A stretch of 64,000 nucleotides of DNA, taken from positions 1 through 64,000 of the IMG/VR virus record IMGVR_UViG_3300009514_000888; one strand, 5' to 3'. The stretch is from a virus. Below, one piece after another: positions 24,513-48,371 of this stretch; positions within the stretch are counted from its first letter, which is position 1, and the number at the start of each line of letters is the position of its first letter. The notes beneath the pieces are model-generated. The model saw nothing but the letters and a program-made list of their open reading frames with translations. It was not told the DNA's origin and made no database searches. The position numbers and the translations under genes are program-made.

Positions 24513-24514
24513 TT

Positions 24515-24607
24515 GGACAGGTAGCGATCCCCGCGGGAGGCTGTAACCCTCTTGCCATGATAATTAGCGGGGTGGTCGGCATAGGGGTTCGATTCCTCCG
24601 CTGCCTA
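24515..24607 (+). tRNA. degenerate tRNA-Tyr(GTA)-like
   Basis: GGAGG-CTGTAAC-CCTCT anticodon arm, GGGG-TTCGATT-CCTC T arm, very short D loop, imperfect acceptor. Confidence 0.5.
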
Positions 24608-24623
24608 TTATGGGTGCTAAATT

Positions 24624-25115
24624 ATGAGTGAAGACCAAAACAAATATGCTGTGCCTATTAAGGCCGACGATATCCTTTGGAACATCCACGCCAAGCCTGT
24701 CAAGGTTGGCACCACCCCGCCCATCGGCGTAAAGCTCGAATGGGGCTGGACAGCAGGCAAGACAGAGGAAGAACTGGCAAGCTATGCCCATGATGCGCCA
24801 ACGGGCAGCGCGTCAGTCACAACAACGCTAGACTTGGCGATTGAGTTGAGAAATAAACTGAACAAGATCATCAAGGAGTATAATGTAGAGCCGGTTGACC
24901 AATGCGATAGATGTAAGGAAGAGATTTTCCCTTACGAAGAATCGGAAGATACCGCAGGGGGGACGGTTCACACAGACCAGGAGAGATGCGATCAGTTGAA
25001 GAAACTGAATGAGTCGAGCGCGAAACTGCAAAAGTTGTTTGAAGAACATCCAGAACTGTTGAATCTACAACCAGAGATAGGGACAGAAGAGGAAGAGGAG
25101 AGTCCGTTTGATTGA
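24624..25115 (+). CDS. hypothetical protein
   Basis: 163-aa ORF. Confidence 0.65.
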   Translation: MSEDQNKYAVPIKADDILWNIHAKPVKVGTTPPIGVKLEWGWTAGKTEEELASYAHDAPTGSASVTTTLDLAIELRNKLNKIIKEYNVEPVDQCDRCKEEIFPYEESEDTAGGTVHTDQERCDQLKKLNESSAKLQKLFEEHPELLNLQPEIGTEEEEESPFD

Positions 25116-25500
25116 CATAGGACATAGAACAAAGGAAGCAGTCATGATTCCAGCAATTGGCAAAAGCACTTTGCTCGGTTTTCGGTATCAACTGGTTGGC
25201 TTTCTTTTCATGGACAACCCGATGAATTGTCACGGCAAGGTCGAAGTTACTTTTTTTAAGCAAGACAGTAGCAGTGACTTGTACTTGATTTGCCTTAGTG
25301 AAGTCACGAAAGATCAAGCCAAGACATATGCGGAGATTCTGAAAAATAAGTTGGGAGAGATGGTTGCGGCCGAAGAAGTAATTCCGTATGTTCAGCGCAG
25401 TTTGGGAGACGTGGAGTATGAGGCTTTTCAGGGCTTGATGGAAGCATCTTTCGCTTTGAAAATAGAATGGAGTAGCCCGACTGCCAGCAAAGATAGGTAA
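25108..25500 (+). CDS. hypothetical protein (start may be ATG 25145)
   Basis: ORF with AAGGA RBS. Confidence 0.55.
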   Translation: MIDIGHRTKEAVMIPAIGKSTLLGFRYQLVGFLFMDNPMNCHGKVEVTFFKQDSSSDLYLICLSEVTKDQAKTYAEILKNKLGEMVAAEEVIPYVQRSLGDVEYEAFQGLMEASFALKIEWSSPTASKDR

Positions 25501-25576
25501 TGTTGAAAACATAGCAGCCTATTGACGAGCAGGCATCGTTTTCTCTGTATGCTAAAGCATTGGGAAGGCTTTCTCG

Positions 25577-25999
25577 ATGACGACGTTCCAGATTAACGGG
25601 CAAACGATTGAGTTCGATGAGACTCTTTCTTATGCCGATTTTTGGGTCGATGGATCAAGTTATGTGTTTGCTTGGATTCAATGGGACAAAATACTCACGG
25701 CATTATCAGAGGGCAGAGAATGGGACGCAGGAATACGCAGGTTTGTTAAATTGCTTTCCAGATGGGTTCACGAGGCTCCCAGGAAGCGTGTCTATCGCGG
25801 CTTGAAGATGTCTGGCGTAACGGTGGTGAGCTCTGAATTTTTCTTTGAGCAGCAGGGAGGGGATGAGATGATTAACTCACTGGAAAACACTGGCAAATTT
25901 GCGGTTAGGCTCCTGGAGGTTTACGACGAGAGTCCAATGGAACCGATAAAACATGAAGGGAGAAACCCGATTCGCGTAGATCAATTAAAGATAGAATAG
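25577..25999 (+). CDS. hypothetical protein
   Basis: 140-aa ORF ending at the first base of the tRNA. Confidence 0.6.
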   Translation: MTTFQINGQTIEFDETLSYADFWVDGSSYVFAWIQWDKILTALSEGREWDAGIRRFVKLLSRWVHEAPRKRVYRGLKMSGVTVVSSEFFFEQQGGDEMINSLENTGKFAVRLLEVYDESPMEPIKHEGRNPIRVDQLKIE

Positions 26000-26089
26000 G
26001 ACAGGTGGCCGAGTGGCTGAAGGCAACGGTTTGCTAAACCGTCGTAGGGGGTATTCCTCCTACCGCGGGTTCGAATCCCGCCCTGTCCG
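25999..26089 (+). tRNA. tRNA-Ser(GCT)
   Basis: GGACAGG/CCTGTCC acceptor, ACGGT-TTGCTAA-ACCGT anticodon arm, long variable arm, GCGGG-TTCGAAT-CCCGC T arm, G73. Confidence 0.95.
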
Positions 26090-26115
26090 TTGTCCAGGAA
26101 GCGCATAATATTTTC

Positions 26116-26382
26116 ATGCCAGAAAAAGAAAGGCAACCTCCCCTGAACGACGGCGACCTGTTCCGAGTGTCAGCTCGGCGCAATGGGAAATGGAATGCAT
26201 ACGTTGGTCGCGTTATTAGCAAAGCAGAGCAGACATTTGAGACTGTTTGGATGACTGACTTCGTCTATGATACGGAAGCAGAAGCCGAGCAGGCTATAGA
26301 AGACGCAGTCAACAAGGCGCGGGCGAAAGAATGGGGTTGGAATGACAATATAACCGGGAAGGTTGATCAAGACGGAGAGTAA
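26116..26382 (+). CDS. hypothetical protein
   Basis: ORF in the + strand run. Confidence 0.5.
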   Translation: MPEKERQPPLNDGDLFRVSARRNGKWNAYVGRVISKAEQTFETVWMTDFVYDTEAEAEQAIEDAVNKARAKEWGWNDNITGKVDQDGE

Positions 26383-26724
26383 ACTAGCGAGGCGCTAGCT
26401 CCGGTTGGAAGCCGGATGGAGCTGAAATACGCTTACGGATCGTGACCGTTGCTCTCCTTTTTCATTACTTTTGGACAGGATATGGCCATGATGAAAGAAG
26501 AAGATATCCAAACCGCTGACGATCTTCTGTCCTACATTCTTGAGTTTCAGGATGTGATATATGTGCGAGAGCAAGTCAATGGGAAATGGGGATCGTTTAG
26601 CCTGGAAGAGCTGCCTGATGATTTGCGTCAGAATCATGTGAATAGATTTTTGGACGAAGGGCGCATTCCTTTTCGGCTCAAGCGAGACGCTGAGCAATCA
26701 GGCGATTAATACTCCGGCATTCTG

Positions 26725-32929: not shown

Positions 32930-34531
32930 GTGAATATGACCCAGACAACCGCACTCGACCAGCCGCATGCCCTTGCGTTTTACCACGAAGGCAAGGTCCG
33001 CGTTCATCCTGACGCATCCCAGGATGTCAAGAGCGCGGTTCTTACCTTTATTGACACTGTGCTGACGGCCAGCGGACAGGCGACGTATTACAACACCAAG
33101 AAAGAGCAGTATCGCGCGCTCTACGAGGTTCATGATGCGATTTTTCGCGTCAATCGCGGACTGTATGGCGCGATGCTGTGTCTGCCTGGCATCATGGACA
33201 AGAGCCGTCAAATTGGTTTTACCAAGCTCCTGGAAGATAACAGTGAGGGCAGGGAAGCATCGTTCTTAACCCCAGAACAGGAAAATTGGGTTATTGCCTA
33301 TCTGTCCAGAAATATTAGACCCAGCGCGCTGTTCCGGCAGTTCGTGGAAATTCGCAATAAGAGGGTGAATAACAGCCGCGTGCGCAAGTTCATTTTTGGC
33401 GCGATCCTGCCGAGTAATTCGCTGCCGCTTTGGTCGGTCAAGTATCGATCCAAGGTTCGCGCTGCGCTAGAACATGCTTGGAGCCGGCAAATGGCTTCTG
33501 CGATTCGTTGTATTCTGAGCAAACCTGCCCAGTCGAGAACAGATAAGGAAAGGTCCATCCTTGATAAGAACATTGATCGCTGGGTACGGCGCGGCAATAG
33601 CGAGCTGACCCCCGACGAGGTTTATCAGTGTATTTGCTTTGTTTTGGGCGGGAAGATGGGTAGCAAGTATACCGTCAAACTGTTGATGCAGCGGCTTGAT
33701 GCCCGAGAGAGCCTGGACAAGGGCAAGGACTTACCGCCGGAAGTCCTGGAAGGCATTCGAAGTCGCTATCACAAGGATGCTGCTAAGGGCGCGGTCTTGG
33801 CGGTCACTAAGGATACGATGACCAATACCCAGAAGCGCCGCGTACAGCGCTCGGCCAAGGAAGCGAATGTTGATGTTAAAATGGACCCGCTCAAGCAGGA
33901 CATTATTCCGCTGTATGTTTACGCGCTTGAAATGGGGATGACTCGCGAAATCTTCCAGGCCCTCGACACGAAGGCTCGCAAAATCGCGCAGACAATCCCT
34001 GTTCGATATAGGCGCGTCGGCATTGTGGTGGATAACTCCGAGTCGATGTTCGGCACGGATCAGGCGAAGCGCAAGCCGTTGGCTATCGCCCTGGCTATGC
34101 GAGACATCCTTGCGGCGTCCGCGACAGAATATGCCTTCGCCATCCCATCGCAGGGACAGTTCGATGACTTCGGCATGACAACGTCGCGCGGCGACACGAG
34201 TCTTGCCGAGCCTCTGATTCGAGTAATCGAGGAAGGGGTTGATGCGGTCTACCTGATTACTGATGGATACGAGAACAGTCCGGCAGGCAGGACCGGCGAA
34301 GTTATTGAACGTTTGAGGGAAATCGGCATTGAGGTTCCTATCTTCCAGGTGTCGCCTGTTGTGTCCGTCGAGGCGGCAGGTATTCGTGCGCTTTCGGATC
34401 GTGTCGCTCCGATGCCGGTTGCGAACCCAGCAGGCATCGGCTTGTCGATGATTCGAGCAACGATTACGAGCGATGTCGAGACGGGCATCGAAGCGCTTTT
34501 GGAAACCACGCGACCGCTACTGGAGGGTTAA
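32930..34531 (+). CDS. Ro60/TROVE-like protein (helical N-terminal region plus C-terminal vWA)
   Basis: 533 aa; vWA MIDAS-like IVVDNSESM, T(S)LAEP and YLITDGYEN at Ro60-like positions; basic helical N-terminal two thirds; a Y-RNA-like array lies downstream. Confidence 0.55.
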   Translation: MNMTQTTALDQPHALAFYHEGKVRVHPDASQDVKSAVLTFIDTVLTASGQATYYNTKKEQYRALYEVHDAIFRVNRGLYGAMLCLPGIMDKSRQIGFTKLLEDNSEGREASFLTPEQENWVIAYLSRNIRPSALFRQFVEIRNKRVNNSRVRKFIFGAILPSNSLPLWSVKYRSKVRAALEHAWSRQMASAIRCILSKPAQSRTDKERSILDKNIDRWVRRGNSELTPDEVYQCICFVLGGKMGSKYTVKLLMQRLDARESLDKGKDLPPEVLEGIRSRYHKDAAKGAVLAVTKDTMTNTQKRRVQRSAKEANVDVKMDPLKQDIIPLYVYALEMGMTREIFQALDTKARKIAQTIPVRYRRVGIVVDNSESMFGTDQAKRKPLAIALAMRDILAASATEYAFAIPSQGQFDDFGMTTSRGDTSLAEPLIRVIEEGVDAVYLITDGYENSPAGRTGEVIERLREIGIEVPIFQVSPVVSVEAAGIRALSDRVAPMPVANPAGIGLSMIRATITSDVETGIEALLETTRPLLEG

Positions 34532-34535
34532 GGTT

Positions 34536-35567
34536 ATGGCTATGGCGAATATCAGCGTAGGCGAACTTTTGCACGGCTGTGTGCCTGGCCGGATTCAGTC
34601 TGTAGGCTACATGCAGGTCATCCCTCTTATCTCTGGTATTGAGGATGAGCGTTTCGTGTCTCCGAGACGGGCGAAGGTTTCGACCACGACATACGGCACA
34701 CTTGTTTTCGACAACACCGAAAACAAGGAGGTTATTGTCCCGGCTCAGGCGGCTTATATTGTTAAGCAGGCAGCGCAGGACCATGCGATGACGACGGTTG
34801 GGCTGGTTCCCAAGAAGAAGACGATATCGTTCAATACGGCAGCATGTATCCAGCAGACTCAGGGTGGAACTATTTACTCTGACGAGCATGAGATGATTAT
34901 CTTGCCGGTCGAATTGCGCAATGATGCCCACCAAGTCCGCAAGAAGCTGGGCTACGAAAAACTGTGGCCTGCCATTAACGCTATGAATGAGAGGTATGGC
35001 GTTAGCCGCGGATATGGCGCGCAGGGGCATTTGGAATACTTCATGGATGCGTTCAAGACTCAACTGGATTGCTTCGTCGCCGAGTTTGAGCCTGTTCCTA
35101 AACAGGTCGGCGCGATTGTGTTGGTTGGCGGCAGGGTCGTTGGCATTGAACGCACCCCGAACGAGGAATATTGGCGAGACATCTGGCGCACCTTGATCAG
35201 GGAGTGCTATGGGTCGCTGGCGATTCTTGAACAGCGAAAACATGCCACGAAGGCTCCTCCAGTCCCCAAGACCCGAGAGGCTTTGCCCAAGGCAACCGAT
35301 CTGTCGGACCTCAAGACGAAACTCCGGCAGACCCAGGACCGAGAGTATTCTAATGTGAAAACCATCGTGGAGAACGTTGCGGCACTGAAGCTTGATCGGT
35401 CAACGGACGCCACCAGCGGCTCGTTTGTGGTCGATGCGGTAGAGGGCGACTCTTTCGTAGGCCAGGTGGTTGTAGACGGCGAGAAGATTGTGTACGCTTC
35501 TCTCGTCGCTCGCGGATCGCAGGCCAAGAATGAGGATTGGTTCCTGGGTAAACGGTTTGCGATGTAA
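34536..35567 (+). CDS. ARPP-1/DUF6569-like protein
   Basis: MQVIPL, AQDHA and ACIQQTQGG pattern; start is ATG 34536 or the next ATG. Confidence 0.5.
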   Translation: MAMANISVGELLHGCVPGRIQSVGYMQVIPLISGIEDERFVSPRRAKVSTTTYGTLVFDNTENKEVIVPAQAAYIVKQAAQDHAMTTVGLVPKKKTISFNTAACIQQTQGGTIYSDEHEMIILPVELRNDAHQVRKKLGYEKLWPAINAMNERYGVSRGYGAQGHLEYFMDAFKTQLDCFVAEFEPVPKQVGAIVLVGGRVVGIERTPNEEYWRDIWRTLIRECYGSLAILEQRKHATKAPPVPKTREALPKATDLSDLKTKLRQTQDREYSNVKTIVENVAALKLDRSTDATSGSFVVDAVEGDSFVGQVVVDGEKIVYASLVARGSQAKNEDWFLGKRFAM

Positions 35568-35582
35568 AATTGCCCCCGGTAG

Positions 35583-35619
35583 CTCCTCCTGGCGGCTTCG
35601 GTCGCTAGGGGGAGTTTTT
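35583..35619 (+). terminator. intrinsic terminator
   Basis: CTCCTCCTGGCG-GCTTCGGT-CGCTAGGGGGAG followed by a T run. Confidence 0.75.
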
Positions 35620-35667: not shown

Positions 35668-35695
35668 TTGACATTAAAGGTTCGGACGTTACTAT
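35668..35695 (+). promoter_or_regulatory. sigma70-like promoter upstream of the ncRNA array
   Basis: TTGACA-16 nt-TACTAT, ending about 15 nt before ncRNA unit 1. Confidence 0.65.
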
Positions 35696-35709
35696 GACGA
35701 ATAAGAAAG

Positions 35710-35773
35710 CTGGGGACTTGAACGTCAATACCGCGATCTTCGGATAGTTGGCATGACCTTTAACCTACCCCAG
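35710..35773 (+). ncRNA. Y-RNA-like unit 1 (small insert)
   Basis: CTGGGG/CCCCAG terminal stem; GGACTTGAACGTCAATACCG ... TTTAACCTACC. Confidence 0.6.
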
Positions 35774-35845
35774 ATACTATTTTGTCGCAAGTGCGATGTA
35801 GATGAACGCATGACAAGTGAATAATGGTGGTTTTGGGATGCCCAA

Positions 35846-35948
35846 CTACTAACAGAGGGTGGGGTCAGGACTTTCGCGTCAATTCCGTGATTAGACAATT
35901 TCACACCCTTTGACCCGCCCCCTACCTGATCCTATCCCCTGTTAGTAG
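35846..35948 (+). ncRNA. Y-RNA-like unit 2 (hairpin insert)
   Basis: CTACTAACAG/CTGTTAGTAG stem; GGACTTTCGCGTCAATTCCG ... TTTGACCCGCCCCCTACC. Confidence 0.65.
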
Positions 35949-35953
35949 AACAT

Positions 35954-36105
35954 AAACGGGAACTCTTGCGTCAATACCGAGTAGGCATTATAAACCCCAG
36001 GATACGGGTTCGAATCCCGTTCGGCGCTTTGCGTAGTTTAGTACGCGCCGATAGCTCAATTGGCAGAGCAGGAATCTCAACGTTGACCCAAACCTTATCC
36101 CGTTT
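35954..36105 (+). ncRNA. Y-RNA-like unit 3, YrlA-like (permuted tRNA-like insert)
   Basis: AAACGGGA/TCCCGTTT stem; conserved core; order is T arm, loop-closed acceptor stem (TCGGCGC/GCGCCGA), D arm. Confidence 0.75.
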
Positions 36106-36115
36106 TTTAATACTG

Positions 36116-36268
36116 ACCGCCGGAAGCGAATAGATAGGACTCGCGCGTTAATACCGTGACATAGCTCAATGGTAGAGCAACACCCCTAAAGGTGCGATTG
36201 AAGGTTCAAACCCTTCTGTCTCAACAGAACTTAACCCGCAACCTACCTATCTATTTCCTTCCGGCGGT
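36116..36268 (+). ncRNA. Y-RNA-like unit 4 (complete tRNA-like insert, 6-nt CCUAAA loop)
   Basis: ACCGCCGGAAG/CTTCCGGCGGT and ATAGATAGG/CCTATCTAT stems; conserved core; insert has GCTC/GAGC D arm, CACC/GGTG arm and GAAGG-TTCAAAC-CCTTC T arm. Confidence 0.7.
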
Positions 36269-36310
36269 TTTTTAATGCGCAGAAAAATCTATTAATTAGT
36301 TACATAGTGT

Positions 36311-36440
36311 ACCGTGGGAAGCACGGAAACAAACGCTCGTGGAGACTGCTTAAGGTTCATGCTCGTTTTACGAGCAGGGGTACTCCAACGACAAGATTCT
36401 CCGGCGAAAATGCCGACTGCATCATATGATGTAGGCAACC
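36311..36440 (+). ncRNA. orphan TnpB omega-RNA-like structured RNA
   Basis: CCGTG-GGAAG-CACGG hairpin, A-rich linker, ACGCTCGTGGAG...CTCCAACGA long stem, possible GGGAA/TTCTC pseudoknot. Confidence 0.45.
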
Positions 36441-36442
36441 AT

Positions 36443-36515
36443 GGCCGCGTAGCTCAGCGGAAGAGCAAAGCGTCTCTAAAACGCTAGGTCCAGGGTTCGA
36501 GTCCCTGCGCGGCTT
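36443..36515 (+). tRNA. amber suppressor tRNA (anticodon CTA)
   Basis: GGCCGCG/CGCGGCT acceptor, GCTC/GAGC D stem, AGCGT-CTCTAAA-ACGCT anticodon arm (CTA at 36476-36478), CAGGG-TTCGAGT-CCCTG T arm. Confidence 0.85.
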
Positions 36516-36516
36516 T

Positions 36517-36801
36517 ATGAATGTACGAGATTATCTTAAAGACGAGATTGTCAAGTACGTTGAGTCGGCTCAGGGCTGTAAGGCCACTGAAATTGCTCCT
36601 GCGATAATTGATGCCATCACCCCCACCCAAAGGGAGGATGGGACAATGGCTGCATTTCTAGAACTTCCATTTATAATTGAAGAGCTGATTGATGAAGGAC
36701 GGATTGTATCTGTCTGTTACTCATTGCCGAGTATGCCATACCGAGAAAAACAGTTTTTGTTACCTGCTGGCACATCAGTATTAGCAAGGAGCTTGCTATG
36801 A
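36517..36801 (+). CDS. hypothetical protein
   Basis: ORF starting right after the tRNA. Confidence 0.55.
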   Translation: MNVRDYLKDEIVKYVESAQGCKATEIAPAIIDAITPTQREDGTMAAFLELPFIIEELIDEGRIVSVCYSLPSMPYREKQFLLPAGTSVLARSLL

Positions 36802-37163
36802 AGAGTGTGGTAGCATTGATTATTCTGATCATTCCGTCTTTCGCATTTGCCGGTCAAAAGATTCATATTGGCATTTATTCTACCAGCGGCTTTCATCGCG
36901 CTCATTACCAGCCAGCTTATTATGGAAGCCGACCGTTCAGCTATACATCTTTCATCCGCATGCCTCCACCGCAGAAAACGCCGCCATTGGCTTACGATAA
37001 TAACAAGGCGGCATATGGGTATGTACAATCTCGTATCATTGCGGCGAAGCAAAGAGAAGTGGAGAAGCAGGAAAAGGCGAAGTGGCAGGATGACCAGCAG
37101 AGACGAAATGTAATTTGGGAACAGCAAAGGAATCAATTCGCTCGAAGTTGGATTTTTGATTAG
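36798..37163 (+). CDS. exported hypothetical protein
   Basis: Signal peptide ending AFA. Confidence 0.55.
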   Translation: MKSVVALIILIIPSFAFAGQKIHIGIYSTSGFHRAHYQPAYYGSRPFSYTSFIRMPPPQKTPPLAYDNNKAAYGYVQSRIIAAKQREVEKQEKAKWQDDQQRRNVIWEQQRNQFARSWIFD

Positions 37164-37175
37164 AAAGGAATTGAA

Positions 37176-37778
37176 ATGTCATTGATTCTGAAAGCGGCGC
37201 GACTGGCACGGAAAGCTCATGGGGGACAGACCCGCAAACATAATGGGCTACCATATGATGCTCATGTTTCTCGCGTTGCGGGTCGGGTAGCCACTCATGA
37301 CATCGCCTGCGAAGAAAGTGTAGCGGCGGCCTTTCTTCATGACGTGAAAGAGGACACGTCATATACATTCGATGATATCCTTACTGAATTACACGATGAG
37401 CGGGCAGAAGATGTGCTCGATCTCGTCCGTGAATTGACCAATCCGTCCAAGGGTTCTCGCTTATCCAGGACGGAACGTAAGTGCATGGATAGAGATCATC
37501 TATCTAATGTCAGCTATGAGGCGAAGGTTATAAAACTCATTGACCGCTGCGATAACCTAATGGAAATACTGTCTAACTGGACGAGGCTGACTATAGACGA
37601 AAAAAACTTTGTTCAGCTCTATGTCGAAGAATCTATATTATTGGCGAAAGTGATAGGACATGCGGATGAACGTTTGGAAGAGGAACTGATGATGTATGCC
37701 CATCAGTTGCGAAAGTTGGTTCGCCAAGAAGTCTCGCATCGGCGAACTTCTCCGGACTCTATCGAAACTGCATCATAG
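37176..37778 (+). CDS. HD-domain hydrolase, RelA/SpoT-hydrolase (Mesh1/SAH)-like
   Basis: AHGGQTRK..GLPY..H, AAFLHDVKEDT and IKLIDRCDN motifs. Confidence 0.85.
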   Translation: MSLILKAARLARKAHGGQTRKHNGLPYDAHVSRVAGRVATHDIACEESVAAAFLHDVKEDTSYTFDDILTELHDERAEDVLDLVRELTNPSKGSRLSRTERKCMDRDHLSNVSYEAKVIKLIDRCDNLMEILSNWTRLTIDEKNFVQLYVEESILLAKVIGHADERLEEELMMYAHQLRKLVRQEVSHRRTSPDSIETAS

Positions 37779-37794
37779 GTAGATAGGTAGATAG

Positions 37795-38013
37795 GTGATA
37801 ACGATGTTTCAACCAAACAACATTGAGACGTTCATGGGGGGAACTTTTGGGCTGCCTAAGCATGGGATCAAGACAGTGGGTGACTTGCGTATACTGCTTC
37901 GATCCTGGGCGCAAGAGGTAGATGATTGGGGCGACGACGATACCCCGATCAGCGAAGTAGCGATTGTCAAAGACAGAGTCAGCGTGACTCTTGCGGCAGG
38001 TATTGTTCAGTGA
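37795..38013 (+). CDS. hypothetical protein
   Basis: Small ORF. Confidence 0.45.
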   Translation: MITMFQPNNIETFMGGTFGLPKHGIKTVGDLRILLRSWAQEVDDWGDDDTPISEVAIVKDRVSVTLAAGIVQ

Positions 38014-38039
38014 GAACCCTCAATATAAGGAGACCAACT

Positions 38040-38402
38040 ATGGGATTCTCGTAGGTTGACAATTCGGTTTCGTATCTTTACGTTATCACACGTAGGGACT
38101 TGCCATTTCCTGTCTGCGCCGTTCAGGCGTGTCATGCCGCAATCGAAGCGGCCAGGTTCATTCCCCCATAGGTAGAGCATCCTCATCTCGTTTTGTGCGC
38201 CGTCAGAGATGAGGAGCGACTTGAACGCGCAGCTGAGAAGCTGGAGCGTAAGGGTATCCGTCTGCGCCGATGGCGAGAGCCGGATATCGATCAGTTAACC
38301 GCAATTGCGACAGAGCCTATTTCAGGCGATGCGCGTCGTTACTTCAAAGACTTCCAACTTCTTAAAGGAGACCACGATGGCTACGCTCACACAGTATCGT
38401 AA
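38040..38402 (+). CDS. Pth2-like peptidyl-tRNA hydrolase with two in-frame TAG codons (38052-38054, 38169-38171)
   Basis: AAGGAG RBS then MGFS*VDNSVSYLYVITRRDLPFPVCAVQACHAAIEAARFIPP*VEHPHLVLCAV...REPDIDQLTAIATEPI; the Pth2-family motifs lie on both sides of the second amber. Confidence 0.75.
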
Positions 38403-38799
38403 TGTTTACAAGACCCGCTTCGGCTACGTTTCGTGTAGCTACAGGATGTATCAGAAGCTCAGAAGGCTTAACTACCTTTGCCTTCTGACTCGCCAACAGA
38501 ATGCGAGATGGGAGCGGTGGAACCGCAAAGACCCCCAGAACCGAGTCATCCGTCAATGGATCAGGAACAGCCAGGGCCAGAAGGTCGGTTCGGTTGTTTC
38601 TGGTCCACAGCCCGAGCCTAAGAGATACCGTGTCCTCGAATCTCATCTGGAGAGCATTGAGTTCGCTTATCGATTGGCCAAGTATCCGATGCCGCAGGCG
38701 ACGTTGGCGATGGAGGCGGCTCGCTTGATATCTGTCGAAGACAGCAACAGAGACTTCGACCGGCTCTTGGAAACAGCTGAGCAGGAGATTATATCCTGA
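38377..38799 (+). CDS. hypothetical protein overlapping the Pth2-like 3' end
   Basis: AAGGAG RBS, ATG 38377. Confidence 0.7.
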   Translation: MATLTQYRNVYKTRFGYVSCSYRMYQKLRRLNYLCLLTRQQNARWERWNRKDPQNRVIRQWIRNSQGQKVGSVVSGPQPEPKRYRVLESHLESIEFAYRLAKYPMPQATLAMEAARLISVEDSNRDFDRLLETAEQEIIS

Positions 38800-38803
38800 T
38801 AGT

Positions 38804-38835
38804 TAGCTGGCGGAGGCCAGCGTCTCCGCCAGCTA
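38804..38835. terminator. hairpin terminator between convergent genes
   Basis: TAGCTGGCGGAG/CTCCGCCAGCTA perfect 12-bp stem followed by TTGTTTTT. Confidence 0.7.
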
Positions 38836-39102
38836 TTGTTTTTGAGCGGTAAATCGCTTAGCAGGACAGGCAAATTCTGGATCGCGAGTGATCGTGTGAA
38901 TCAGTTTATCTACTTTGACGCATCGGCTTGCGGTGGTTAGCCCGCCGGTTGCCTTATATCGCGGGCTGGGGTTCTTGGTTGCGTATTTACATTTACGGCA
39001 TTTGTCGCGTCGGTAGTGTATGACGGTGAGAGATACAGATGTCTTGGAGTCCGTCTTACCAACATGCTTTCCTGGTTGTCTTTTTCCGCATTTACAGGGC
39101 AT
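38833..39102 (-). CDS. small Cys-rich basic protein
   Basis: MPCKCG...CRKC...C...CP; converges on the terminator. Confidence 0.5.
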   Translation of the reverse strand: MPCKCGKRQPGKHVGKTDSKTSVSLTVIHYRRDKCRKCKYATKNPSPRYKATGGLTTASRCVKVDKLIHTITRDPEFACPAKRFTAQKQ

Positions 39103-39467
39103 ACTCTGGGTGTCGATATAAAGTTTTTAAGTTCGTTAAGACGAACCATAATTTGTGATAGACAAGCAATTGCAAAGCCTCGCCGTAGATTGGGCAGACA
39201 AGGTGTTCCAGGATATCTATACAGCTTGCCATAGCCCTGAGCATGTTCTTTACGGCGAATCTCTTAAGATGTACAAGATACTAAGCGACTGGGGTTGGTT
39301 TGAGTTATGTCCGATAGAGGAGGATCAGGGCGAGGCGGTTACTCGTCAATGGTTGGCTATGAACAAATATGCGAAACTTGAATGGGCAAAGCGACACCCA
39401 GGAGCCGACAAGAAAATAAAGCCCAGCAAATGGGACATTGTAACTGGCCGGGCGAAGAGGAAATGAT

Positions 39468-39815
39468 ATGCTGATTTACCTGATTATAGCCGTATTGTCC
39501 GCCTGTGGCTTATCGATTTTGGTGGTAGAGAAGGGCAACGACTATCCTATCCGCTTCGTTGTTCAACCTTTGCGGATGTTGCTGGAAGCAGTTCACGAGA
39601 AGACGGGGGGAGTCTTTGATTGCGGAGTATGTTTTTCGTTTTGGGCGGCATTGTTGTGTGATTGGTTGTTGTATTATGTTTTTACAGATCAGGTCTATTT
39701 TTTGTGGCCCATATCGGGCTTAGTAGCGGTATTTGTGATGTGGCTGGTTTATGAAATTCTGAATGCGTTTGACCCTCTAATGGGGGAGGATTCGGACGAG
39801 GAAGTTGGTATATAG
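39468..39815 (+). CDS. small membrane protein (CxxC)
   Basis: Hydrophobic segments with CGVCFSFW. Confidence 0.6.
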   Translation: MLIYLIIAVLSACGLSILVVEKGNDYPIRFVVQPLRMLLEAVHEKTGGVFDCGVCFSFWAALLCDWLLYYVFTDQVYFLWPISGLVAVFVMWLVYEILNAFDPLMGEDSDEEVGI

Positions 39816-39846
39816 ATGATAGGAGAAGGTAGAGAGATTACCGTGC

Positions 39847-40551
39847 ATGAGCTTGTCATCTTTATTTTCGCGCGAGCATTACGAATCCTGGACACTAAGA
39901 GTTGCATCTAGCCTTGACGAAGTTTACAGTGCTTGGAGGTTGGTATACCGCGAATATCGCTCATTTGGGTTTCTGCATGAGAACAAATATAAGATTGTTG
40001 TTCCTCGGCATTTCAATCATGATTCGTTGGTCATACTGACCAGTATCTACCACGTAGCCATCTCAACATTAACTTGTTCTCTGGATAGCGAACATGGCTT
40101 GACTTTGGACACAGTCTTCCGGGATCAGATAGATCAACTACGAGATGACGGGAGGCATGTCGCAGAAATAGGGATGTTTGCTAGTGTTCGGGGGCATGAG
40201 GCTTATCGGTCCTTGGCCAGAGACTTGCTGGAAATGATGCGCTACTCGTACTATTACTTACGATACCAAAAAATAGATGATATTGTGGTTGGAGTTCACC
40301 CAGACCATGTATCATTTTATAAGGATGTATTTGGTCTGGACATATTTAGCGATGAGAGATCGTATGCCAGATATAGCAACAATCCTGTGGTTTTGATGAG
40401 AGCTGGGCTTCAAAACTGGTCTAAAAAAGATCATCCTGTAGTTAGATACTACGGCGACAATCGCATTCCTGAGTTACAATTCAAACATCGATATGACTTC
40501 AATCCAGTAGAGGTTCGCGATTCCGCCATAGGAAAATTCCTGGACTCTTAG
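39847..40551 (+). CDS. GNAT-fold N-acyl amino acid synthase (FeeM-like)
   Basis: AWRLVYREY...G, VAEIG.FA, VGVHP.H..FY and NNPVVL motifs. Confidence 0.7.
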   Translation: MSLSSLFSREHYESWTLRVASSLDEVYSAWRLVYREYRSFGFLHENKYKIVVPRHFNHDSLVILTSIYHVAISTLTCSLDSEHGLTLDTVFRDQIDQLRDDGRHVAEIGMFASVRGHEAYRSLARDLLEMMRYSYYYLRYQKIDDIVVGVHPDHVSFYKDVFGLDIFSDERSYARYSNNPVVLMRAGLQNWSKKDHPVVRYYGDNRIPELQFKHRYDFNPVEVRDSAIGKFLDS

Positions 40552-42875: not shown

Positions 42876-43439
42876 GTGGAAGCGGGCGATTACCGCGCTA
42901 TAGATATGATTGAGGCGAGAGTTGGAGACATTGCGTATCCCAAGTCGGTGGCTGTAGTTACACCTGCCAATGGATGCGGGATTATGTCGCGGGGCGTCGC
43001 AGCAATTTTGAGCGATGTCCGGCATGGCGGCAAAACGCTGGAACAGCAGGGCAAGGCTCTGGTGGCGAAGCGGGAGAAGCCGTTCGCGGCAGGCGAGATG
43101 TTTTTTACGGGGCCTGGAAGGCTCAGGCGACGCGGTGTGCAGCGTGTGTATCATGCTGTGTTGCAGGAGTTCCCAGGAGGATACACGAGCTTGCATTGGG
43201 TAAATCAGGCTATGAGGGCCGTCATGAAGGCGGCGGTGGATGAGGGATACGACAGCATTACCTTGCCCGCGATTGGGGCAGGGCCAGAAAGGCTTGATCC
43301 GGTATCGGTTGCCGGACAGATGACAATTGTGGCAAAGGCGTATTCTCATCTGATAGGTATCAAGTTCATCGATGCTAACGAGGTCTTTATCAACGAGATC
43401 AAAAGTCTGATAGGCATGGAACAGGAAAGTCATGAGTAG
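42876..43439 (+). CDS. macro domain protein
   Basis: VGDI, VVTPANG..MSRGVAAI, VYHAV and SITLPAIGAG motifs. Confidence 0.85.
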   Translation: MEAGDYRAIDMIEARVGDIAYPKSVAVVTPANGCGIMSRGVAAILSDVRHGGKTLEQQGKALVAKREKPFAAGEMFFTGPGRLRRRGVQRVYHAVLQEFPGGYTSLHWVNQAMRAVMKAAVDEGYDSITLPAIGAGPERLDPVSVAGQMTIVAKAYSHLIGIKFIDANEVFINEIKSLIGMEQESHE

Positions 43440-44040
43440 CGTCCTAGATCATCCAGTATTGGTACTGAACAAGGGATGGCTTGCTATCCACATTGACACT
43501 GTTCGCGAAGCGATTGTGAAGGCGTGCAGCGGCGCGGCTAACATCATTCACGCGGACGGCGGCTATGCTCTTTACTCAATGGGAGAGTGGATGGAGCTGC
43601 CGGTCAATGAAGGGAATCGTTTCATTCAGGCAGGACATCAGAAAGTCCTGGCTCCGGTCATTATCGTTTTGACTGATTACAACGAGATTCCTTCGTTTGA
43701 AGTGAAGTTGACTCGTCGGAACATCATGATCCGCGATGGCTTTACCTGCCAGTATTCGGGTCGCAGACTGCGTCCTCGCGAAGCAACGCTCGATCACATT
43801 ATGCCGCGCTCTCGCGGCGGGCGTTCCACTTGGGAAAACCTGGTTTGCTCGCATCCGGACATCAACTTTCGTAAGGGTGACAAAACGCCGCAGGAAGCCG
43901 GGCTGACTTTGCGCAGAGTGCCATATAAGCCTGAATGGGGTCCGGCTTTCACGGCGACTGTTTCCAATGCGCCCAAAGAGTGGGAACCGTTTTTGACGAA
44001 ACGAGAGAAGGAACTGTTCTTTCCTCAAGCCGTCGCATGA
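43432..44040 (+). CDS. HNH endonuclease
   Basis: VLVLN, RD.FTCQY.G, TLDHIMPRSRGG.STWENLV and N.RKGDKTP motifs. Confidence 0.9.
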   Translation: MSSVLDHPVLVLNKGWLAIHIDTVREAIVKACSGAANIIHADGGYALYSMGEWMELPVNEGNRFIQAGHQKVLAPVIIVLTDYNEIPSFEVKLTRRNIMIRDGFTCQYSGRRLRPREATLDHIMPRSRGGRSTWENLVCSHPDINFRKGDKTPQEAGLTLRRVPYKPEWGPAFTATVSNAPKEWEPFLTKREKELFFPQAVA

Positions 44041-44906: not shown

Positions 44907-47900
44907 GTGCCTGACATATCAGTAAAGAAACGAAATGGTCGTCTCGAAAAACTCAATTTAGACAAAATCAATCGTTGTGTTCAGCGCGCTTGCGATGACG
45001 TAGAGGCGGTTTCGGCGAGCGAGGTTATACTGGATGCCCAGGTGCAGCTTTATAACAAGATTACCACAACCGAAATTGATAAAGCGCTTATTTTATCCGC
45101 CAGAAGTAAAATCGAGAAAGACCCCAACTATTCCACGGTTGCCGCTCGACTACTCCTCAATACCATATACAAAGAAGTCTTTGGAGAAGGCGTCGATAGC
45201 GATGTCTTCGACATGCAATATCACAAGTCGTTCGTGACAAATCTCAAGAATTTGGTTAAAGTTGGGCGTATTGATGCAGAGCTGTTGAAATTCGACCTGA
45301 ATCGCCTTGCGAAGGCGCTGGATACGCGCAGGGATCATTTGTGGAACTATTTGGGTATCCAGACGGTCTACGACAGATACCTGTTACACATCAACGGACG
45401 GCGTATGGAGACTCCGCAGGGATTTTGGATGCGAGTTGCGATGGGACTGGCGATTAACGAAGAAGATCGGGAAACCAAGGCTATCGAATTCTATGATGCT
45501 CTATCTCGCAATTTATGCCTTTCTGGCACGCCGACATTGTTTAATAGCGGCACCGTTCATCCTCAGCTGAGTAGTTGTTATCTTTCAAGCGTTGACGACT
45601 CGATTAACGGTATTTTCGGAACGATACATAACCAAGCATGTTTGTCCAAATTTGCTGGCGGACTGGGAGTAGACTGGACTCCTATCCGCGGGACCGGCTC
45701 TTATATTCGAGGAACCAATGGCAAAAGCCAGGGCTTAGTGCCGTGGCTTAAAATCTTTAACGATACGTTGGTCGCAGTCAATCAATGCTTTGATCCTGAG
45801 ACACATGTATTTACGGGCAAGGGTATAAAGCAAATGAAAGATGTTGAGAAAGGCGATTTTATACTTTCCGGAAATGGCGAACAATGCGAAGTTGAACAGG
45901 TGATGTTTTATGAGCAGAATGATAGCATGGTCGAAATCGATGTTGAGCATTCTGTTGACAAGATGAGGGTCACTTCTGGTCATCCGCTTTTGGCTTTACG
46001 CAATGTTCCAGTAGAAGTTGAGAACGATAGGACTTATAGGAGGTTGGATAAGGGAATGATCGCGACGGAATGGGTCGAGGCAGGCGACTTGAAACAGGGC
46101 GATTATGTCGCATTCCCCATACCGCAAGAGACATTGAAGGTGGATGGATTTGCGGATGAAGATGCTTATCTGTATGGATTGATGCTAGGAGACGACCATG
46201 CCTCCATAGATCAAGACGAACGTGGAGTATCCTTTCGCCAAGATACCGCAAATGGCAGTTTGCCGTTTGATTATGATGATTTATATGACAAAGATCATAA
46301 CAAAAGAATATCTGCGAAATTCATGCACCTTCCTAGACCTCAGTCTTTGCAGATGATCAAGGGATTGCTGGATTCGGATGAAAATCTGTCTATAGGAGAC
46401 GAGATAATCTTTGGCAATGCTTCTAGATTACTAGTGGAAGGCATGAGGTATCAGCTTCTTCGTATGGGGATACCGTCTGCTGGTAATAAAAGAGAAAGAA
46501 ATTATGATCCTGAATTTCCTTGCAGCGATGGCCCAGCGGTCGCCGCGAAAGGAACGACGGTTGTTTATGATTTAAGAATTCCAGCTGTTCAGGAGATTGC
46601 AGATTTGGTAGGGTCTAAAGTGTTGACTAAGCCAAACTGGTTACGTGTTCATAACTTGATATTAAGTAGAGTGAAGTCTGTAAATCCAATGGACAAATTG
46701 CCAGTGGTAGTTGATCTGAAGATAAAACGAGATGAGACGTACGTGACCAGCTCTGGATTAGCTCATAATGGCGGTAGGCGGAAGGGGGCAGGATGCGCTT
46801 ATTTAGAGACATGGCATTGCGATCTTGAGGACTTTTTGGAGTTACGTAAAAATACCGGCGATGATCGTCGGCGTTGTCATGATATGCATATGGCCAACTG
46901 GATTCCTGATGAATTTATGCGCCGCGTTCAGGGAGATGAGCAGTGGTATCTTTTCAGCCCAAGCGACACTCCCGATCTACATGATCTATTTGGGAAAGAG
47001 TTCGATAAGGCATACAAGCTATACTGCAAGCAGGCGGATGCTGGGGAAATCCCCAGTAGGATAGTTCCCGCCAAACATCTTTGGAAGAAGATGCTACGGT
47101 CTTTATATGAAACTGGACACCCGTGGATGACCTGGAAAGACCCGTCTAACATTCGCTATCCCAATCAGCATGTGGGGACGGTTCATTCGTCTAACTTGTG
47201 TACCGAAATCCTCTTGCACACTAAGGCGACTAAGTATGGAGACACAGGCGAGGTTGAGGAAATCGGAGAGACAGCTGTGTGTAACTTAAGTAGTCTCAAC
47301 TTGGCAGCTCATATCGAAAATGGTAATATGAACTGGGATTTGCTTCAAAAAACCATTGGCACAGCAATGCGAATGCTCGATAATGTCATTGATATTAACT
47401 ACTATCCGACCAAAGAATCTCGCAAGTCCAATACGACTCATCGCCCTGTCGGACTGGGAATTATGGGCTTTCATGACATGCTTCATCTGTTGGGTATCAC
47501 TTATGATTCAAATGAGGCCGTTGAACTTTCTGGGCAGGTGCAAGAGTTTGTTTCGTACCACGCCATTTTGAACTCTAGCAAGTTGGCCAAGGAGCGCGGG
47601 ACGTACCGCACTTACGAAGGCTCGACCTGGGATCAGGGGTTGCTGCCTATCGACACTTATCGAGAGTTGATCAAATATCGTGGCAATGAAGATGCTACAA
47701 TAGTTCAACGGCTGGATTGGAGTGAAGTTAAAGATCACGTAGCGCAGCATGGTATGCGTAACTCGAATACGATGGCAATTGCTCCAACCGCTACAATTAG
47801 TTATATCGCCGGATGCTCGCAAAGTATCGAGCCAGACTTTGGCGTTCTTTACGTTTATACGACGCTATCCGGCGAATTTACAATGGCGAACCGCTTCTTC

Positions 47901-48371
47901 GCAGACGATATGAAAAGGCTAGGATTGTGGGGCAAGGACTTGATCGATGCTCTTAAGGTTGTGGATGGAGATATCGATCAACTGAACCTCCCTGAGGATA
48001 TTAAGCACAAGTATAAGTCAGCTTTTCATATGCCACCTGAGCGGCTCATCGACTGCGCTGCCGCCAGGCAACAGTGGATTGATCAGGGGCAGAGTCTTAA
48101 CCTATATGCTGATACGACCAGCATGAAGTACCTGCATGATATGTATATGTATGCCTGGCAAAAATGCCTGAAAACAACCTATTATTTGCGGGCGAAGGCA
48201 GCCAGCCGCATTGAGAAATCTACTGGCTCTAAAAATGGCAATGGGTATCTCAAGGTAAATGGCAATGGCAATGGCAATGGCCAAGAGCCGCAGGAGAACG
48301 TATTGACTGATGGCGATGTTTGTTCGACGGAATCTCGCATGCGCGGCGAGATTTGTGAAGCATGTCAATAA
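44907..48371 (+). CDS. nrdA: ribonucleotide reductase alpha subunit with ATP cone and intein
   Basis: VKKRNG ATP cone, TPTLFN, SSCYL, NLCTEI, CNLSS, APTAT, KTTYY and a C-terminal Cys pair. Confidence 0.95.
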   Translation: MPDISVKKRNGRLEKLNLDKINRCVQRACDDVEAVSASEVILDAQVQLYNKITTTEIDKALILSARSKIEKDPNYSTVAARLLLNTIYKEVFGEGVDSDVFDMQYHKSFVTNLKNLVKVGRIDAELLKFDLNRLAKALDTRRDHLWNYLGIQTVYDRYLLHINGRRMETPQGFWMRVAMGLAINEEDRETKAIEFYDALSRNLCLSGTPTLFNSGTVHPQLSSCYLSSVDDSINGIFGTIHNQACLSKFAGGLGVDWTPIRGTGSYIRGTNGKSQGLVPWLKIFNDTLVAVNQCFDPETHVFTGKGIKQMKDVEKGDFILSGNGEQCEVEQVMFYEQNDSMVEIDVEHSVDKMRVTSGHPLLALRNVPVEVENDRTYRRLDKGMIATEWVEAGDLKQGDYVAFPIPQETLKVDGFADEDAYLYGLMLGDDHASIDQDERGVSFRQDTANGSLPFDYDDLYDKDHNKRISAKFMHLPRPQSLQMIKGLLDSDENLSIGDEIIFGNASRLLVEGMRYQLLRMGIPSAGNKRERNYDPEFPCSDGPAVAAKGTTVVYDLRIPAVQEIADLVGSKVLTKPNWLRVHNLILSRVKSVNPMDKLPVVVDLKIKRDETYVTSSGLAHNGGRRKGAGCAYLETWHCDLEDFLELRKNTGDDRRRCHDMHMANWIPDEFMRRVQGDEQWYLFSPSDTPDLHDLFGKEFDKAYKLYCKQADAGEIPSRIVPAKHLWKKMLRSLYETGHPWMTWKDPSNIRYPNQHVGTVHSSNLCTEILLHTKATKYGDTGEVEEIGETAVCNLSSLNLAAHIENGNMNWDLLQKTIGTAMRMLDNVIDINYYPTKESRKSNTTHRPVGLGIMGFHDMLHLLGITYDSNEAVELSGQVQEFVSYHAILNSSKLAKERGTYRTYEGSTWDQGLLPIDTYRELIKYRGNEDATIVQRLDWSEVKDHVAQHGMRNSNTMAIAPTATISYIAGCSQSIEPDFGVLYVYTTLSGEFTMANRFFADDMKRLGLWGKDLIDALKVVDGDIDQLNLPEDIKHKYKSAFHMPPERLIDCAAARQQWIDQGQSLNLYADTTSMKYLHDMYMYAWQKCLKTTYYLRAKAASRIEKSTGSKNGNGYLKVNGNGNGNGQEPQENVLTDGDVCSTESRMRGEICEACQ
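45786..46769 (+). mobile_element. intein (328 aa, degenerate LAGLIDADG) in NrdA, Gly at +1
   Basis: AVNQ|CFDPETHV...VTSGHP...YLYGLMLGD...KGLLDSD...GLAHN|GGRRKG. Confidence 0.9.

What the first reader, a model, noticed from the sequence alone, without database searches (positions are those of the whole stretch)
38040..38402. Pth2-like gene locked by two in-frame amber codons, 1.5 kb from the amber tRNA
Seen: a strong AAGGAG RBS, TAG at codons 5 and 44, and intact Pth2-type motifs (YVITRRDL...AVQACHAA, EPD...LTAIAT) spanning the second stop. Two independent stops both being TAG, with no frameshift or other decay, argues against simple pseudogenisation. Inference: a double-amber AND-type gate makes peptidyl-tRNA hydrolase output depend steeply on suppressor level or RF1 loss. 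The overlapping next gene (ATG 38377) may be coupled to read-through.
Basis: partly seen in the sequence, partly recalled or inferred. Interest (0 to 1): 0.92.

Follow-up and report, generated by a model that had tools for sequence, protein, structure and literature searches.

The report
Suppressor-tRNA-gated phage Pth2-like gene, double-amber form
A 186-kb phage that otherwise uses the normal genetic code keeps two UAG stop codons inside a small tRNA-hydrolase-like gene and carries a UAG-reading tRNA 1.5 kb upstream. The same lock-and-key pairing is conserved in dozens of distant phages, so the gene is most likely a natural translational switch and not a broken gene.

Summary
An AAGGAG ribosome-binding site (38027-38032) precedes ATG 38040. 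TAG is codon 5 (38052-54) and codon 44 (38169-71), and the frame ends at TAA 38400-02. Read through, the product passes Pfam PTH2's threshold and models as a Pth2 fold (pLDDT 91). A canonical tRNA-CUA lies at 36443-36515 on the same strand.

The genome is not recoded. Code-11 frames cover 91% of the + strand, and about 43 of 207 genes end in TAG.

The gene is not a pseudogene:
- Of 62 distinct family members, 49 have an SD-ATG, then 0-7 sense codons (usually 1-3), then a stop just before the conserved core.
- The stop type matches the neighbouring suppressor anticodon without exception (32 TAG/CUA, 4 TGA/UCA; Fisher p = 1.7e-5).
- These genes avoid their gated codon as terminator.
- The base after the stop is a purine in 48 of 49.
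- The second, loop TAG is kept in 12 distinct IMG/VR-derived sequences (the window among them) and in two further contigs, including the closest relative (about 65-69% identity).
- dN/dS is 0.06-0.3 while the TAGs persist.

No other TAG-interrupted gene was found in this genome. The inserted amino acid, the enzyme's substrate and actual read-through remain untested.

This scan has found the same cassette before on other DNA. I found no published description.

The parts
35668..35695 (+). sigma-70-like promoter (TTGACA-16-TACTAT), downstream of the strong terminator at 35581-35616; possible start of the unit that contains the cassette
   Evidence: Consensus match only; the number of such sites in the region is not above the shuffled expectation.
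36155..36225 (+). aberrant tRNA-like element: 6-nt anticodon loop CCUAAA and mismatched acceptor stem, embedded in a long hairpin that ends in a T-run. Probably not a decoding tRNA.
   Evidence: (Rfam tRNA 46.5 bits)
36443..36515 (+). amber-suppressor tRNA: anticodon CUA in the loop CUCUAAA, canonical cloverleaf, G1-U72, U73, no encoded CCA
   Evidence: (Rfam 58.6 bits, E 1.7e-11)
37176..37778 (+). HD-domain phosphohydrolase (HD_4, RelA/SpoT-hydrolase-like). It also lies between the tRNA-CUA and the Pth2-like gene in the closest syntenic locus, L012.
38027..38032 (+). Shine-Dalgarno AAGGAG of the Pth2-like gene
   Evidence: the same SD-ATG leader layout is seen across the family
38040..38402 (+). 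Pth2-like ORF, 120 codons plus TAA, readable only if both TAGs are decoded
38052..38054 (+). leader TAG (codon 5, context MGFS-TAG-V, +4 G), in the disordered N-terminal tail. This is the family-wide gate position.
38169..38171 (+). second TAG (codon 44, context IPP-TAG-VEHPH, +4 G), in the surface loop between helix 23-40 and strand 49-55. Conserved in a subset of the family.
38377..38799 (+). orf140, a conserved downstream partner of unknown family. It has its own AAGGAG at 38365-38370 and overlaps the Pth2-like gene by 26 nt.
38804..38835 (+). strong intrinsic-terminator-like hairpin (14 pairs, T-run) closing the unit

Best explanation
The gene is a functional Pth2-fold gene whose translation is gated by the phage's own amber-suppressor tRNA.

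Proposed mechanism:
- Ribosomes start at ATG 38040 and meet UAG after four codons.
- Without charged tRNA-CUA, release factor 1 ends translation after a tetrapeptide.
- With it, a fraction reads on, and must read through a second UAG at codon 44 to finish the enzyme.
- Output should therefore rise roughly with the square of suppression efficiency.

Shown by comparison: the stop codons are conserved, selected, matched to the neighbouring suppressor anticodon and specific to this gene.

Inferred: the tRNA is expressed and charged, and read-through occurs. Also inferred is that the product is an ester hydrolase acting on peptidyl- or aminoacyl-tRNA, so that its amount is tied to, and perhaps feeds back on, suppressor activity.
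For: 1. Family-wide leader stop. 49 of 62 distinct members have an SD-ATG, then 0-7 sense codons (usually 1-3), then a stop 6-13 codons before the conserved Y.Y..R.DL core. 35 of those 49 have no in-frame start codon after the stop.
2. Stop type covaries with the suppressor tRNA within 5 kb: 32 TAG with CUA only, 4 TGA with UCA only, no mismatch, Fisher p = 1.7e-5. TGA leaders arose at least three times inside TAG clades.
3. 26 of 30 loci with a single tRNA have a suppressor as that tRNA, and all the suppressors are co-oriented with the gene.
4. Terminators avoid the gated codon: TAG-leader genes end in TGA (30), TAA (13) or TAG (1).
5. The base after the stop is a purine in 48 of 49, against 23 of 39 for ordinary TAG terminators of this genome.
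6. The loop TAG is kept in 12 distinct IMG/VR-derived sequences (the window among them), and also in L090 (65-69% identical, the closest relative) and L091.
7. dN/dS is 0.06-0.31 in double-TAG pairs, with dS up to about 1.4 and the TAGs retained. The window against L090 gives pN 0.28 and pS 0.89.
8. Family-invariant residues are intact. The AF2 model has pLDDT 91, and the top fold matches are all Pth2.
9. The genome uses the standard code and no other TAG-interrupted gene was found. Most related loci are also standard-code.
10. The tRNA and the gene lie on one strand between two strong terminators.
Against: - Nothing is experimental. Expression, processing, charging and the inserted amino acid of the tRNA are unknown.
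- About 43 of 207 genes of this phage end in TAG, so a strong suppressor should be costly. The phage also encodes an RF1-like protein (3067-3684) that would oppose it.
- 12 leader-stop loci show no suppressor tRNA within 5 kb, although several are cut at contig ends.
- Some relatives (XacN1, Xoo-sp13, RaK2) have ungated or fused forms, so the gate is not obligatory for the family.
- The canonical Pth2 lysine is absent, so the enzymatic activity may differ.
- I could not obtain a background rate of suppressor tRNAs in unrelated phage loci.
Confidence: 0.75

Rival explanations
1. Neutral tolerance, not regulation. Because the phage carries a suppressor tRNA, nonsense TAGs in a dispensable gene are only mildly harmful and have drifted in. 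They have no gating function.
For: Both TAGs lie at structurally tolerant, variable positions: the N-terminal tail and a surface loop. Borges et al. propose that acquiring a suppressor lets in-frame stops accumulate.
Against: Drift would scatter TAGs over many genes and positions. Instead they sit at the same two sites of one gene across deep divergence, switch to TGA exactly where the tRNA is UCA, keep a purine at +4 and avoid the gated codon as terminator. No other gene of this genome shows in-frame TAGs.
Confidence: 0.12
2. Plain pseudogene: two independent CAG-to-TAG-type nonsense mutations have inactivated a Pth2-like gene.
For: Under code 11 the frame is broken twice. The public gene call keeps only the 69-aa C-terminal piece (P0001).
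Against: The same stops occur in relatives 45-69% identical, with dN/dS of 0.06-0.3. There are no frameshifts or other stops, and the invariant residues are intact.
Confidence: 0.03
3. The phage uses an alternative code (TAG as sense, code 15) for part or all of its genome, and this gene is just one recoded gene among many.
For: Gene callers chose TAG=Q for short contigs carrying homologues. TAG-recoded phages with CUA tRNAs are well known.
Against: Code-11 frames already cover 91% of the + strand. About 43 of 207 genes end in TAG. Opening TAG gains no more coverage than opening TGA or TAA. In related loci, the median code-11 coverage is 0.85 and the gain is equal for code 15 and code 4.
Confidence: 0.03
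4. The short leader (Met plus a few codons plus stop) acts by itself as a minigene or as a termination-reinitiation site, and the enzyme is made without suppression.
For: 14 of 49 leader-stop genes have an in-frame ATG, GTG or TTG between the stop and the core. Two-to-five-codon minigenes are known to provoke peptidyl-tRNA drop-off (lambda bar minigenes; recalled, not checked here).
Against: In the window there is no start codon between codon 5 and the core, and the second TAG, inside the domain, cannot be bypassed by reinitiation. The covariation between stop type and anticodon is unexplained by this model.
Confidence: 0.05

Closest known systems
Stop-codon recoding in phages with phage-encoded suppressor tRNAs (TAG read as Gln, 'code 15'; Borges et al., bioRxiv 10.1101/2021.08.26.457843; Peters et al., PMC9523058)
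   Same: A phage-encoded tRNA-CUA decodes in-frame TAG in phage genes while the host uses the standard code. This has been proposed as a way to time gene expression.
   Different: There, many genes (structural and lysis) carry many TAGs, and TAG is depleted as a terminator. Here the genome is standard-code with about 21% TAG terminators. A single small gene next to the tRNA carries the stops, at fixed positions, and an opal/UCA version exists.
Orphan suppressor tRNAs of standard-code jumbo phages (for example Xanthomonas phage XacN1, PMC5852040)
   Same: Standard-code large phages carry tRNA-CUA genes and a Pth2-like gene.
   Different: The XacN1 authors read through terminal ambers and found no targets. 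XacN1's own Pth2-like domain is fused and ungated. In this window the Pth2-like gene is a concrete client of the suppressor.
prfB (RF2) autoregulation through an in-frame UGA
   Same: A translation factor gene carries an early in-frame stop codon in its own mRNA, so its synthesis reports on how that stop codon is being handled.
   Different: prfB escapes by a +1 frameshift and senses release-factor level. Here escape needs a suppressor tRNA, there is no frameshift, and any feedback of the enzyme on suppression is only hypothesised.
Archaeal/eukaryotic peptidyl-tRNA hydrolase 2 (Pfam PF01981; PDB 2zv3, 3erj, 1wn2, 1xty, 1q7s)
   Same: Same fold (TM 0.67-0.75), the shared VQxxHA helix motif, and a conserved Asp (D82) and Thr (T87) aligned to the canonical DAG...T positions.
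   Different: About 20-25% identity. The canonical Lys of the GK motif is replaced (Val/Cys here, Gln in most members). The family has its own invariant HPH and ExD motifs. It occurs in phages, and its activity is untested.

Membership tests
Pth2 (PF01981) peptidyl-tRNA hydrolase family | Sequence match to the family profile above the curated threshold | tested here: met
   26.7 bits against a gathering score of 23, residues 13-97. The family profile against PDB gives 24bt_A at E 1.3e-6 and 2zv3_A at 1.9e-4.
Pth2 (PF01981) peptidyl-tRNA hydrolase family | Pth2 alpha/beta fold | tested here: met
   The AF2 model has pLDDT 91.1 and pTM 0.82. The top Foldseek matches are Pth2 structures or unannotated structural-genomics entries (2zv3, 3erj, 1wn2, 1q7s, 1xty), with probability 1.00 and TM 0.67-0.75.
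Pth2 (PF01981) peptidyl-tRNA hydrolase family | Catalytic residues (Lys of the GK motif, Asp, Thr; the residue roles are recalled from the S. solfataricus Pth2 literature and were not checked here) | tested here: inconclusive
   Asp (D82) and Thr (T87) align and are invariant. The Lys position is Val/Cys in the window and Gln in most members.
Pth2 (PF01981) peptidyl-tRNA hydrolase family | Hydrolysis of the peptidyl-tRNA ester bond | not testable with these tools
   No biochemical data exist for this phage family.
Suppressor-tRNA-gated Pth2-like cassette (this scan's recurring finding; no paper found) | SD-ATG, a few codons, then an in-frame stop just upstream of the conserved core | tested here: met
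   MGFS-TAG-V at 38040-38057; the same layout in 49 of 62 distinct members.
Suppressor-tRNA-gated Pth2-like cassette (this scan's recurring finding; no paper found) | Cognate, co-oriented suppressor tRNA nearby | tested here: met
   tRNA-CUA at 36443-36515, 1.5 kb upstream on the same strand. Family-wide match of 32 TAG/CUA and 4 TGA/UCA with no mismatch.
Suppressor-tRNA-gated Pth2-like cassette (this scan's recurring finding; no paper found) | Standard genetic code in the rest of the genome | tested here: met
   91% coverage by code-11 frames, and about 43 of 207 genes end in TAG.
TAG-recoded (code 15) phage | Many genes interrupted by TAG, with TAG rare as a terminator | tested here: not met
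Pyrrolysine decoding | tRNA-Pyl architecture (short variable loop, 6-bp anticodon stem; recalled) and pyl genes | tested here: not met
   ARAGORN's 'Pyl' label comes from the anticodon only. The tRNA has an ordinary cloverleaf with a 5-bp anticodon stem. The pyl genes were not searched for.

The most novel reading that the evidence does not exclude
The cassette may be a self-referential sensor. In this reading the Pth2-fold enzyme is the dedicated, perhaps only, client of the suppressor tRNA in standard-code phages. Its synthesis would measure suppressor activity and its tRNA-ester hydrolase activity would feed back on that activity. The double-amber form would give a squared, switch-like response. 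This would explain why standard-code phages carry 'orphan' suppressor tRNAs and would be a natural counterpart of synthetic amber-gated circuits.
Probability: 0.25. Interest if true: 0.9.

Novelty: new variant of a known kind. Interest (0 to 1): 0.8.

Why it matters
Suppressor tRNAs in phages that use the standard code have had no known targets; the XacN1 authors state this explicitly. This locus and its relatives supply one: a conserved gene that can be translated only by that tRNA, with the stop codon and the anticodon co-varying.

It is a natural, compact, portable translational gate made of a tRNA and a 4-codon leader. The double-stop version should sharpen the response.

It also shows a step between the standard code and full recoding. 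Finally, it flags a systematic annotation error: these genes are called truncated, split or missing under code 11, or are silently translated with TAG=Q.

Tried and rejected
1. Gln inference from homologues. P0002, P0005 and P0008 show Q at the TAG positions, but these proteins had been called with TAG=Q, and their DNA has TAG there. So there is no homologue evidence for which amino acid is inserted.
2. Other clients in the 186-kb genome. I ran a coding-potential scan across every TAG, a leader-pattern scan, and Pfam and PHROG searches on six same-frame gene pairs read through. No domain spans a TAG.
3. 36798-37826 as one read-through gene. Rejected: it is a signal-peptide ORF followed by a separate HD gene with its own start.
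4. Megablast of 36000-40000 against phage records gave no match.
5. Background rate of suppressor tRNAs in unrelated loci. Two control scans returned 0 and 1 loci, so there is no external baseline. I used internal counts instead.
6. RF-1-domain genes as regular partners: found in only 1 of 5 double-TAG records.
7. A search for an RAPP/RGPP-type arrest leader, as reported in another genome, found none here.
8. orf140 has no Pfam or PHROG family and no usable Atlas lead.
11. tRNA identity. The nearest phage tRNAs are Lys, Trp, Arg, Asn and a Sup. Cassette tRNAs are heterogeneous in acceptor stem and discriminator. Identity is undetermined.

Full report
**What is in the window.** The window is the first 64 kb of a single 186,298-bp virus record, and nearly all of its genes are on the + strand. 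At 38027-38032 there is an AAGGAG, followed after 7 nt by ATG 38040. The frame reads MGFS, TAG (38052-54), then 38 sense codons, TAG (38169-71), then 76 sense codons and TAA at 38400-02. Both TAGs are followed by G. With TAG read as a residue, the 120-aa product passes Pfam PTH2's gathering score (26.7 against 23 bits). A canonical 73-nt tRNA with anticodon CUA lies at 36443-36515 on the same strand (Rfam 58.6 bits).

**The genome is not recoded.** Code-11 stop-to-stop frames of 100 or more codons already cover 91% of the + strand. Opening TAG gains no more coverage than opening TGA or TAA. In a simple non-overlapping ORF set, 43 of 207 genes end in TAG, 83 in TAA and 81 in TGA. So TAG is an ordinary terminator in this phage and the Pth2-like gene is an exception.

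**Relatives keep the stops.**
- IMG/VR scans with the protein and with a family alignment returned 89 loci. Adding the window gives 62 distinct sequences.
- In 49 of them, the conserved core (Y.Y..R.DL) is preceded in frame by an SD-ATG, 0-7 sense codons (usually 1-3) and a stop codon 6-13 codons upstream of the core. 35 of those 49 have no in-frame ATG, GTG or TTG after the stop.
- Several sequences that I scored as 'no leader' look like variants of the same design: a GTG start in L014 and L030, a longer N-terminal tail in L016 and L034, and two leader stops in L047.
- The stop is TAG in 45 and TGA in 4.
- Where a suppressor tRNA lies within 5 kb, its anticodon always matches: 32 TAG with CUA only, 4 TGA with UCA only, none mismatched (Fisher p = 1.7e-5). 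One further TAG-leader locus (L035) carries both a CUA and a UCA tRNA.
- On the family tree, the TGA leaders arose at least three times inside TAG-leader groups. For example, L056 is sister to L069 with 99/88 support. These are compensatory changes in a gene and its neighbouring tRNA.
- In 26 of 30 loci with exactly one tRNA, that tRNA is a suppressor. All suppressors are co-oriented with the gene.
- The genes avoid their own gated codon as terminator: TAG-leader genes end in TGA (30), TAA (13) or TAG (1).
- The base after the leader stop is a purine in 48 of 49, against 23 of 39 for ordinary TAG terminators of this genome. From my own recollection, a purine at +4 favours amber suppression in E. 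coli.
- Four Planctomycetota MAG contigs show the same layout, for example GFT-TAG-V, and three of them have an adjacent tRNA-CUA.
- The cultured Cronobacter phage GAP32 has the leader MAQ-TAG and an annotated Sup-tRNA 3.1 kb downstream.

**The second TAG.**
- The loop TAG (context PP-TAG or PG-TAG, shortly before the invariant HPH) occurs in 12 distinct sequences of the IMG/VR-derived set: the window, L010-L013, L021, L023, L027, L028, L031, L049 and L052.
- It also occurs in two short metagenome contigs. L090 encodes the closest relative (65-69% identical, depending on the alignment), and L091 is the other.
- These sequences form two to four groups on the tree, and a single origin is not excluded.
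- Pairwise dN/dS among double-TAG genes is 0.06-0.31 with dS up to about 1.4, and the TAG is aligned to TAG in every such pair. The window against L090 has pN 0.28 and pS 0.89, so synonymous sites are saturated.
- This is purifying selection on a frame that contains two stop codons. It excludes a pseudogene.

**A correction I had to make.** Database homologues P0002, P0005 and P0008 show Q at exactly the two TAG positions, which at first looked like evidence for Gln decoding. Look-up of their contigs showed that they translate to the record only 'with TAG=Q', and their DNA has TAG at those sites. They are further carriers of the stops, not evidence for the inserted amino acid. The tRNA's identity stays open. 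It has G1-U72 and U73, as does the tRNA of the syntenic locus L012. Its nearest phage tRNAs are annotated Lys, Trp, Arg, Asn and Sup, and cassette tRNAs are heterogeneous.

**The protein.**
- The AF2 model built with a 31-sequence alignment has pLDDT 91 and pTM 0.82.
- The best structural matches are Pth2 structures or unannotated structural-genomics entries (2zv3, 3erj, 1wn2, 1q7s, 1xty; TM 0.67-0.75). The family profile finds solved Pth2 chains by sequence (24bt_A at 1.3e-6, 2zv3_A at 1.9e-4).
- Codon 5 lies in the low-confidence N-terminal tail.
- Codon 44 lies in the surface loop between helix 23-40 and strand 49-55, a variable stretch of the alignment. Both positions should tolerate any residue.
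- Family invariants are Q29, H32, H47, P48, H49, E80, D82 and T87. D82 and T87 align with the canonical DAG...T positions.
- The Lys of the canonical GK motif is absent. The fold and family membership are therefore shown, but the activity is inferred.

**Context.**
- A strong terminator (35581-35616) and a promoter-like site (35668-35695) precede about 750 nt of structured non-coding RNA. This includes a sub-threshold YrlA-like match at 35997-36072 and an aberrant tRNA-like element at 36155-36225.
- Next come the tRNA-CUA, orf94, a signal-peptide ORF and an HD phosphohydrolase (37176-37778).
- These are followed by orf72, the Pth2-like gene, orf140 and a strong terminator at 38804-38835.
- The closest syntenic locus, L012, has the order tRNA-CUA, HD, double-TAG Pth2-like gene, orf140, and then four more shared genes.
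- orf140 homologues follow the Pth2-like gene in 16 loci. Most have their own SD-ATG, a few overlap it, and L046 has the two fused in frame.
- orf140 is thus a conserved partner, but nothing shows that its translation depends on read-through.

**Specificity within this genome.** I looked for other TAG-interrupted genes in three ways: coding potential on both sides of every TAG, the leader pattern, and Pfam and PHROG searches of six same-frame neighbours read through. I also tested the 36798-37826 frame. No domain spans a TAG, so the Pth2-like gene is the only client I could identify. Related loci are also mostly standard-code: median code-11 coverage is 0.85, and the gain is the same for code 15 and code 4.

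**Mechanism.**
- The best reading is a translational gate. Without active tRNA-CUA, RF1 ends translation after four residues at almost no cost.
- With the tRNA, a fraction s of ribosomes passes each TAG, so the yield scales roughly as s squared in this double-amber form.
- This gives a steeper response to one input, not an AND of two inputs.
- What the enzyme does with this coupling is not shown. One option is recycling of tRNAs from drop-off products generated by suppression. Another is positive or negative feedback on the suppressor itself.
- The phage also encodes an RF1-like protein lacking domain 1 (3067-3684; best match to RF1 profiles at 172 bits). It would compete at UAG.
- RF-1-domain genes are not regular partners of the cassette: 1 of 5 records had one.

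**Novelty and prior notes.** Full-text searches found no paper linking a Pth2-like gene to suppressor tRNAs or to an in-frame stop. The XacN1 paper reports two CUA tRNAs with no identifiable targets. Borges et al. describe suppressor acquisition by standard-code relatives as a step towards recoding. This scan has reported the same cassette on other DNA many times. I reached the same reading independently. What this window adds is the conserved double-amber form, in a complete-looking standard-code genome with many TAG terminators.

**Limits.**
- All evidence is comparative.
- No sequencing-run data could be obtained.
- I have no external baseline for suppressor-tRNA frequency.

Noticed in passing
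window 3067-3684 (+), with a short ORF at 2904-2987 upstream: Phage-encoded release-factor-like protein with GGQ and a PPT tripeptide. Its best match is to RF1 profiles (172 bits, profile positions 128-335 of 347), so it lacks domain 1. It would compete with the amber suppressor at UAG. Another first-reader note proposes a +1 frameshift at its start; I did not test that.
   Followed up: partly
window 35696-36272 (+): About 600 nt of structured non-coding RNA between a terminator/promoter pair and the tRNA-CUA. It holds a sub-threshold YrlA (Y RNA-like) match at 35997-36072 (33.5 bits against a gathering score of 69), a repeated GCGTCAATACCG-like motif, and a tRNA-like element (36155-36225, 6-nt anticodon loop CCUAAA) enclosed in a long hairpin ending in a T-run. 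orf533 upstream (32930-34531) gave no TROVE or other Pfam hit.
   Followed up: partly
window 44907-48371 (+): NrdA of 1154 aa matches phage NrdA proteins in two pieces covering only about 69% of its length, which suggests an intein or another large insertion. An HNH endonuclease gene lies just upstream (43432-44040).
   Followed up: no
window 34473-35567 (+): ARPP-1/ARPP-2 domain protein (a conflict-system-associated family), immediately upstream of the ncRNA array.
   Followed up: no
window 39847-40551 (+): FeeM-like N-acyl amino acid synthase (122.6 bits). It is syntenic with L012, downstream of the cassette.
   Followed up: no
window 23241-26458 (+): The phage's other tRNAs are only Cys (two copies) and Ser (three copies), an unusually narrow set. 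A 1.1-kb stretch at 23519-24620 has no code-11 ORF.
   Followed up: no
window 37776-37790 (+): The HD gene ends in TAG and has a second in-frame TAG four codons later, before a TGA 12 codons further on. This is a tandem amber arrangement in a genome that carries an amber suppressor.
   Followed up: no
L046:5001-5819; also L104 and L105 (XacN1 ORF364, Xoo-sp13_327): Fused forms exist. L046 has Pth2-like and orf140-like domains in one frame, behind a TGA leader with a tRNA-UCA. In the Xanthomonas jumbo phages, the Pth2-like domain is the C-terminus of an ungated protein of about 280 aa.
   Followed up: partly
L085/L086, codon about 76 of the Pth2-like gene: A third in-frame TAG position, in a member without the leader stop and with a tRNA-CUA 544 nt downstream.
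   Followed up: no
L107-L110 (Gemmataceae, Planctomycetaceae and Pirellulaceae MAG contigs): The same gated cassette, with the leader GFT-TAG-V resembling the window's MGFS-TAG-V, occurs on contigs binned with Planctomycetota. This is a possible hint to the host range of this clade, or binned phage DNA.
   Followed up: partly
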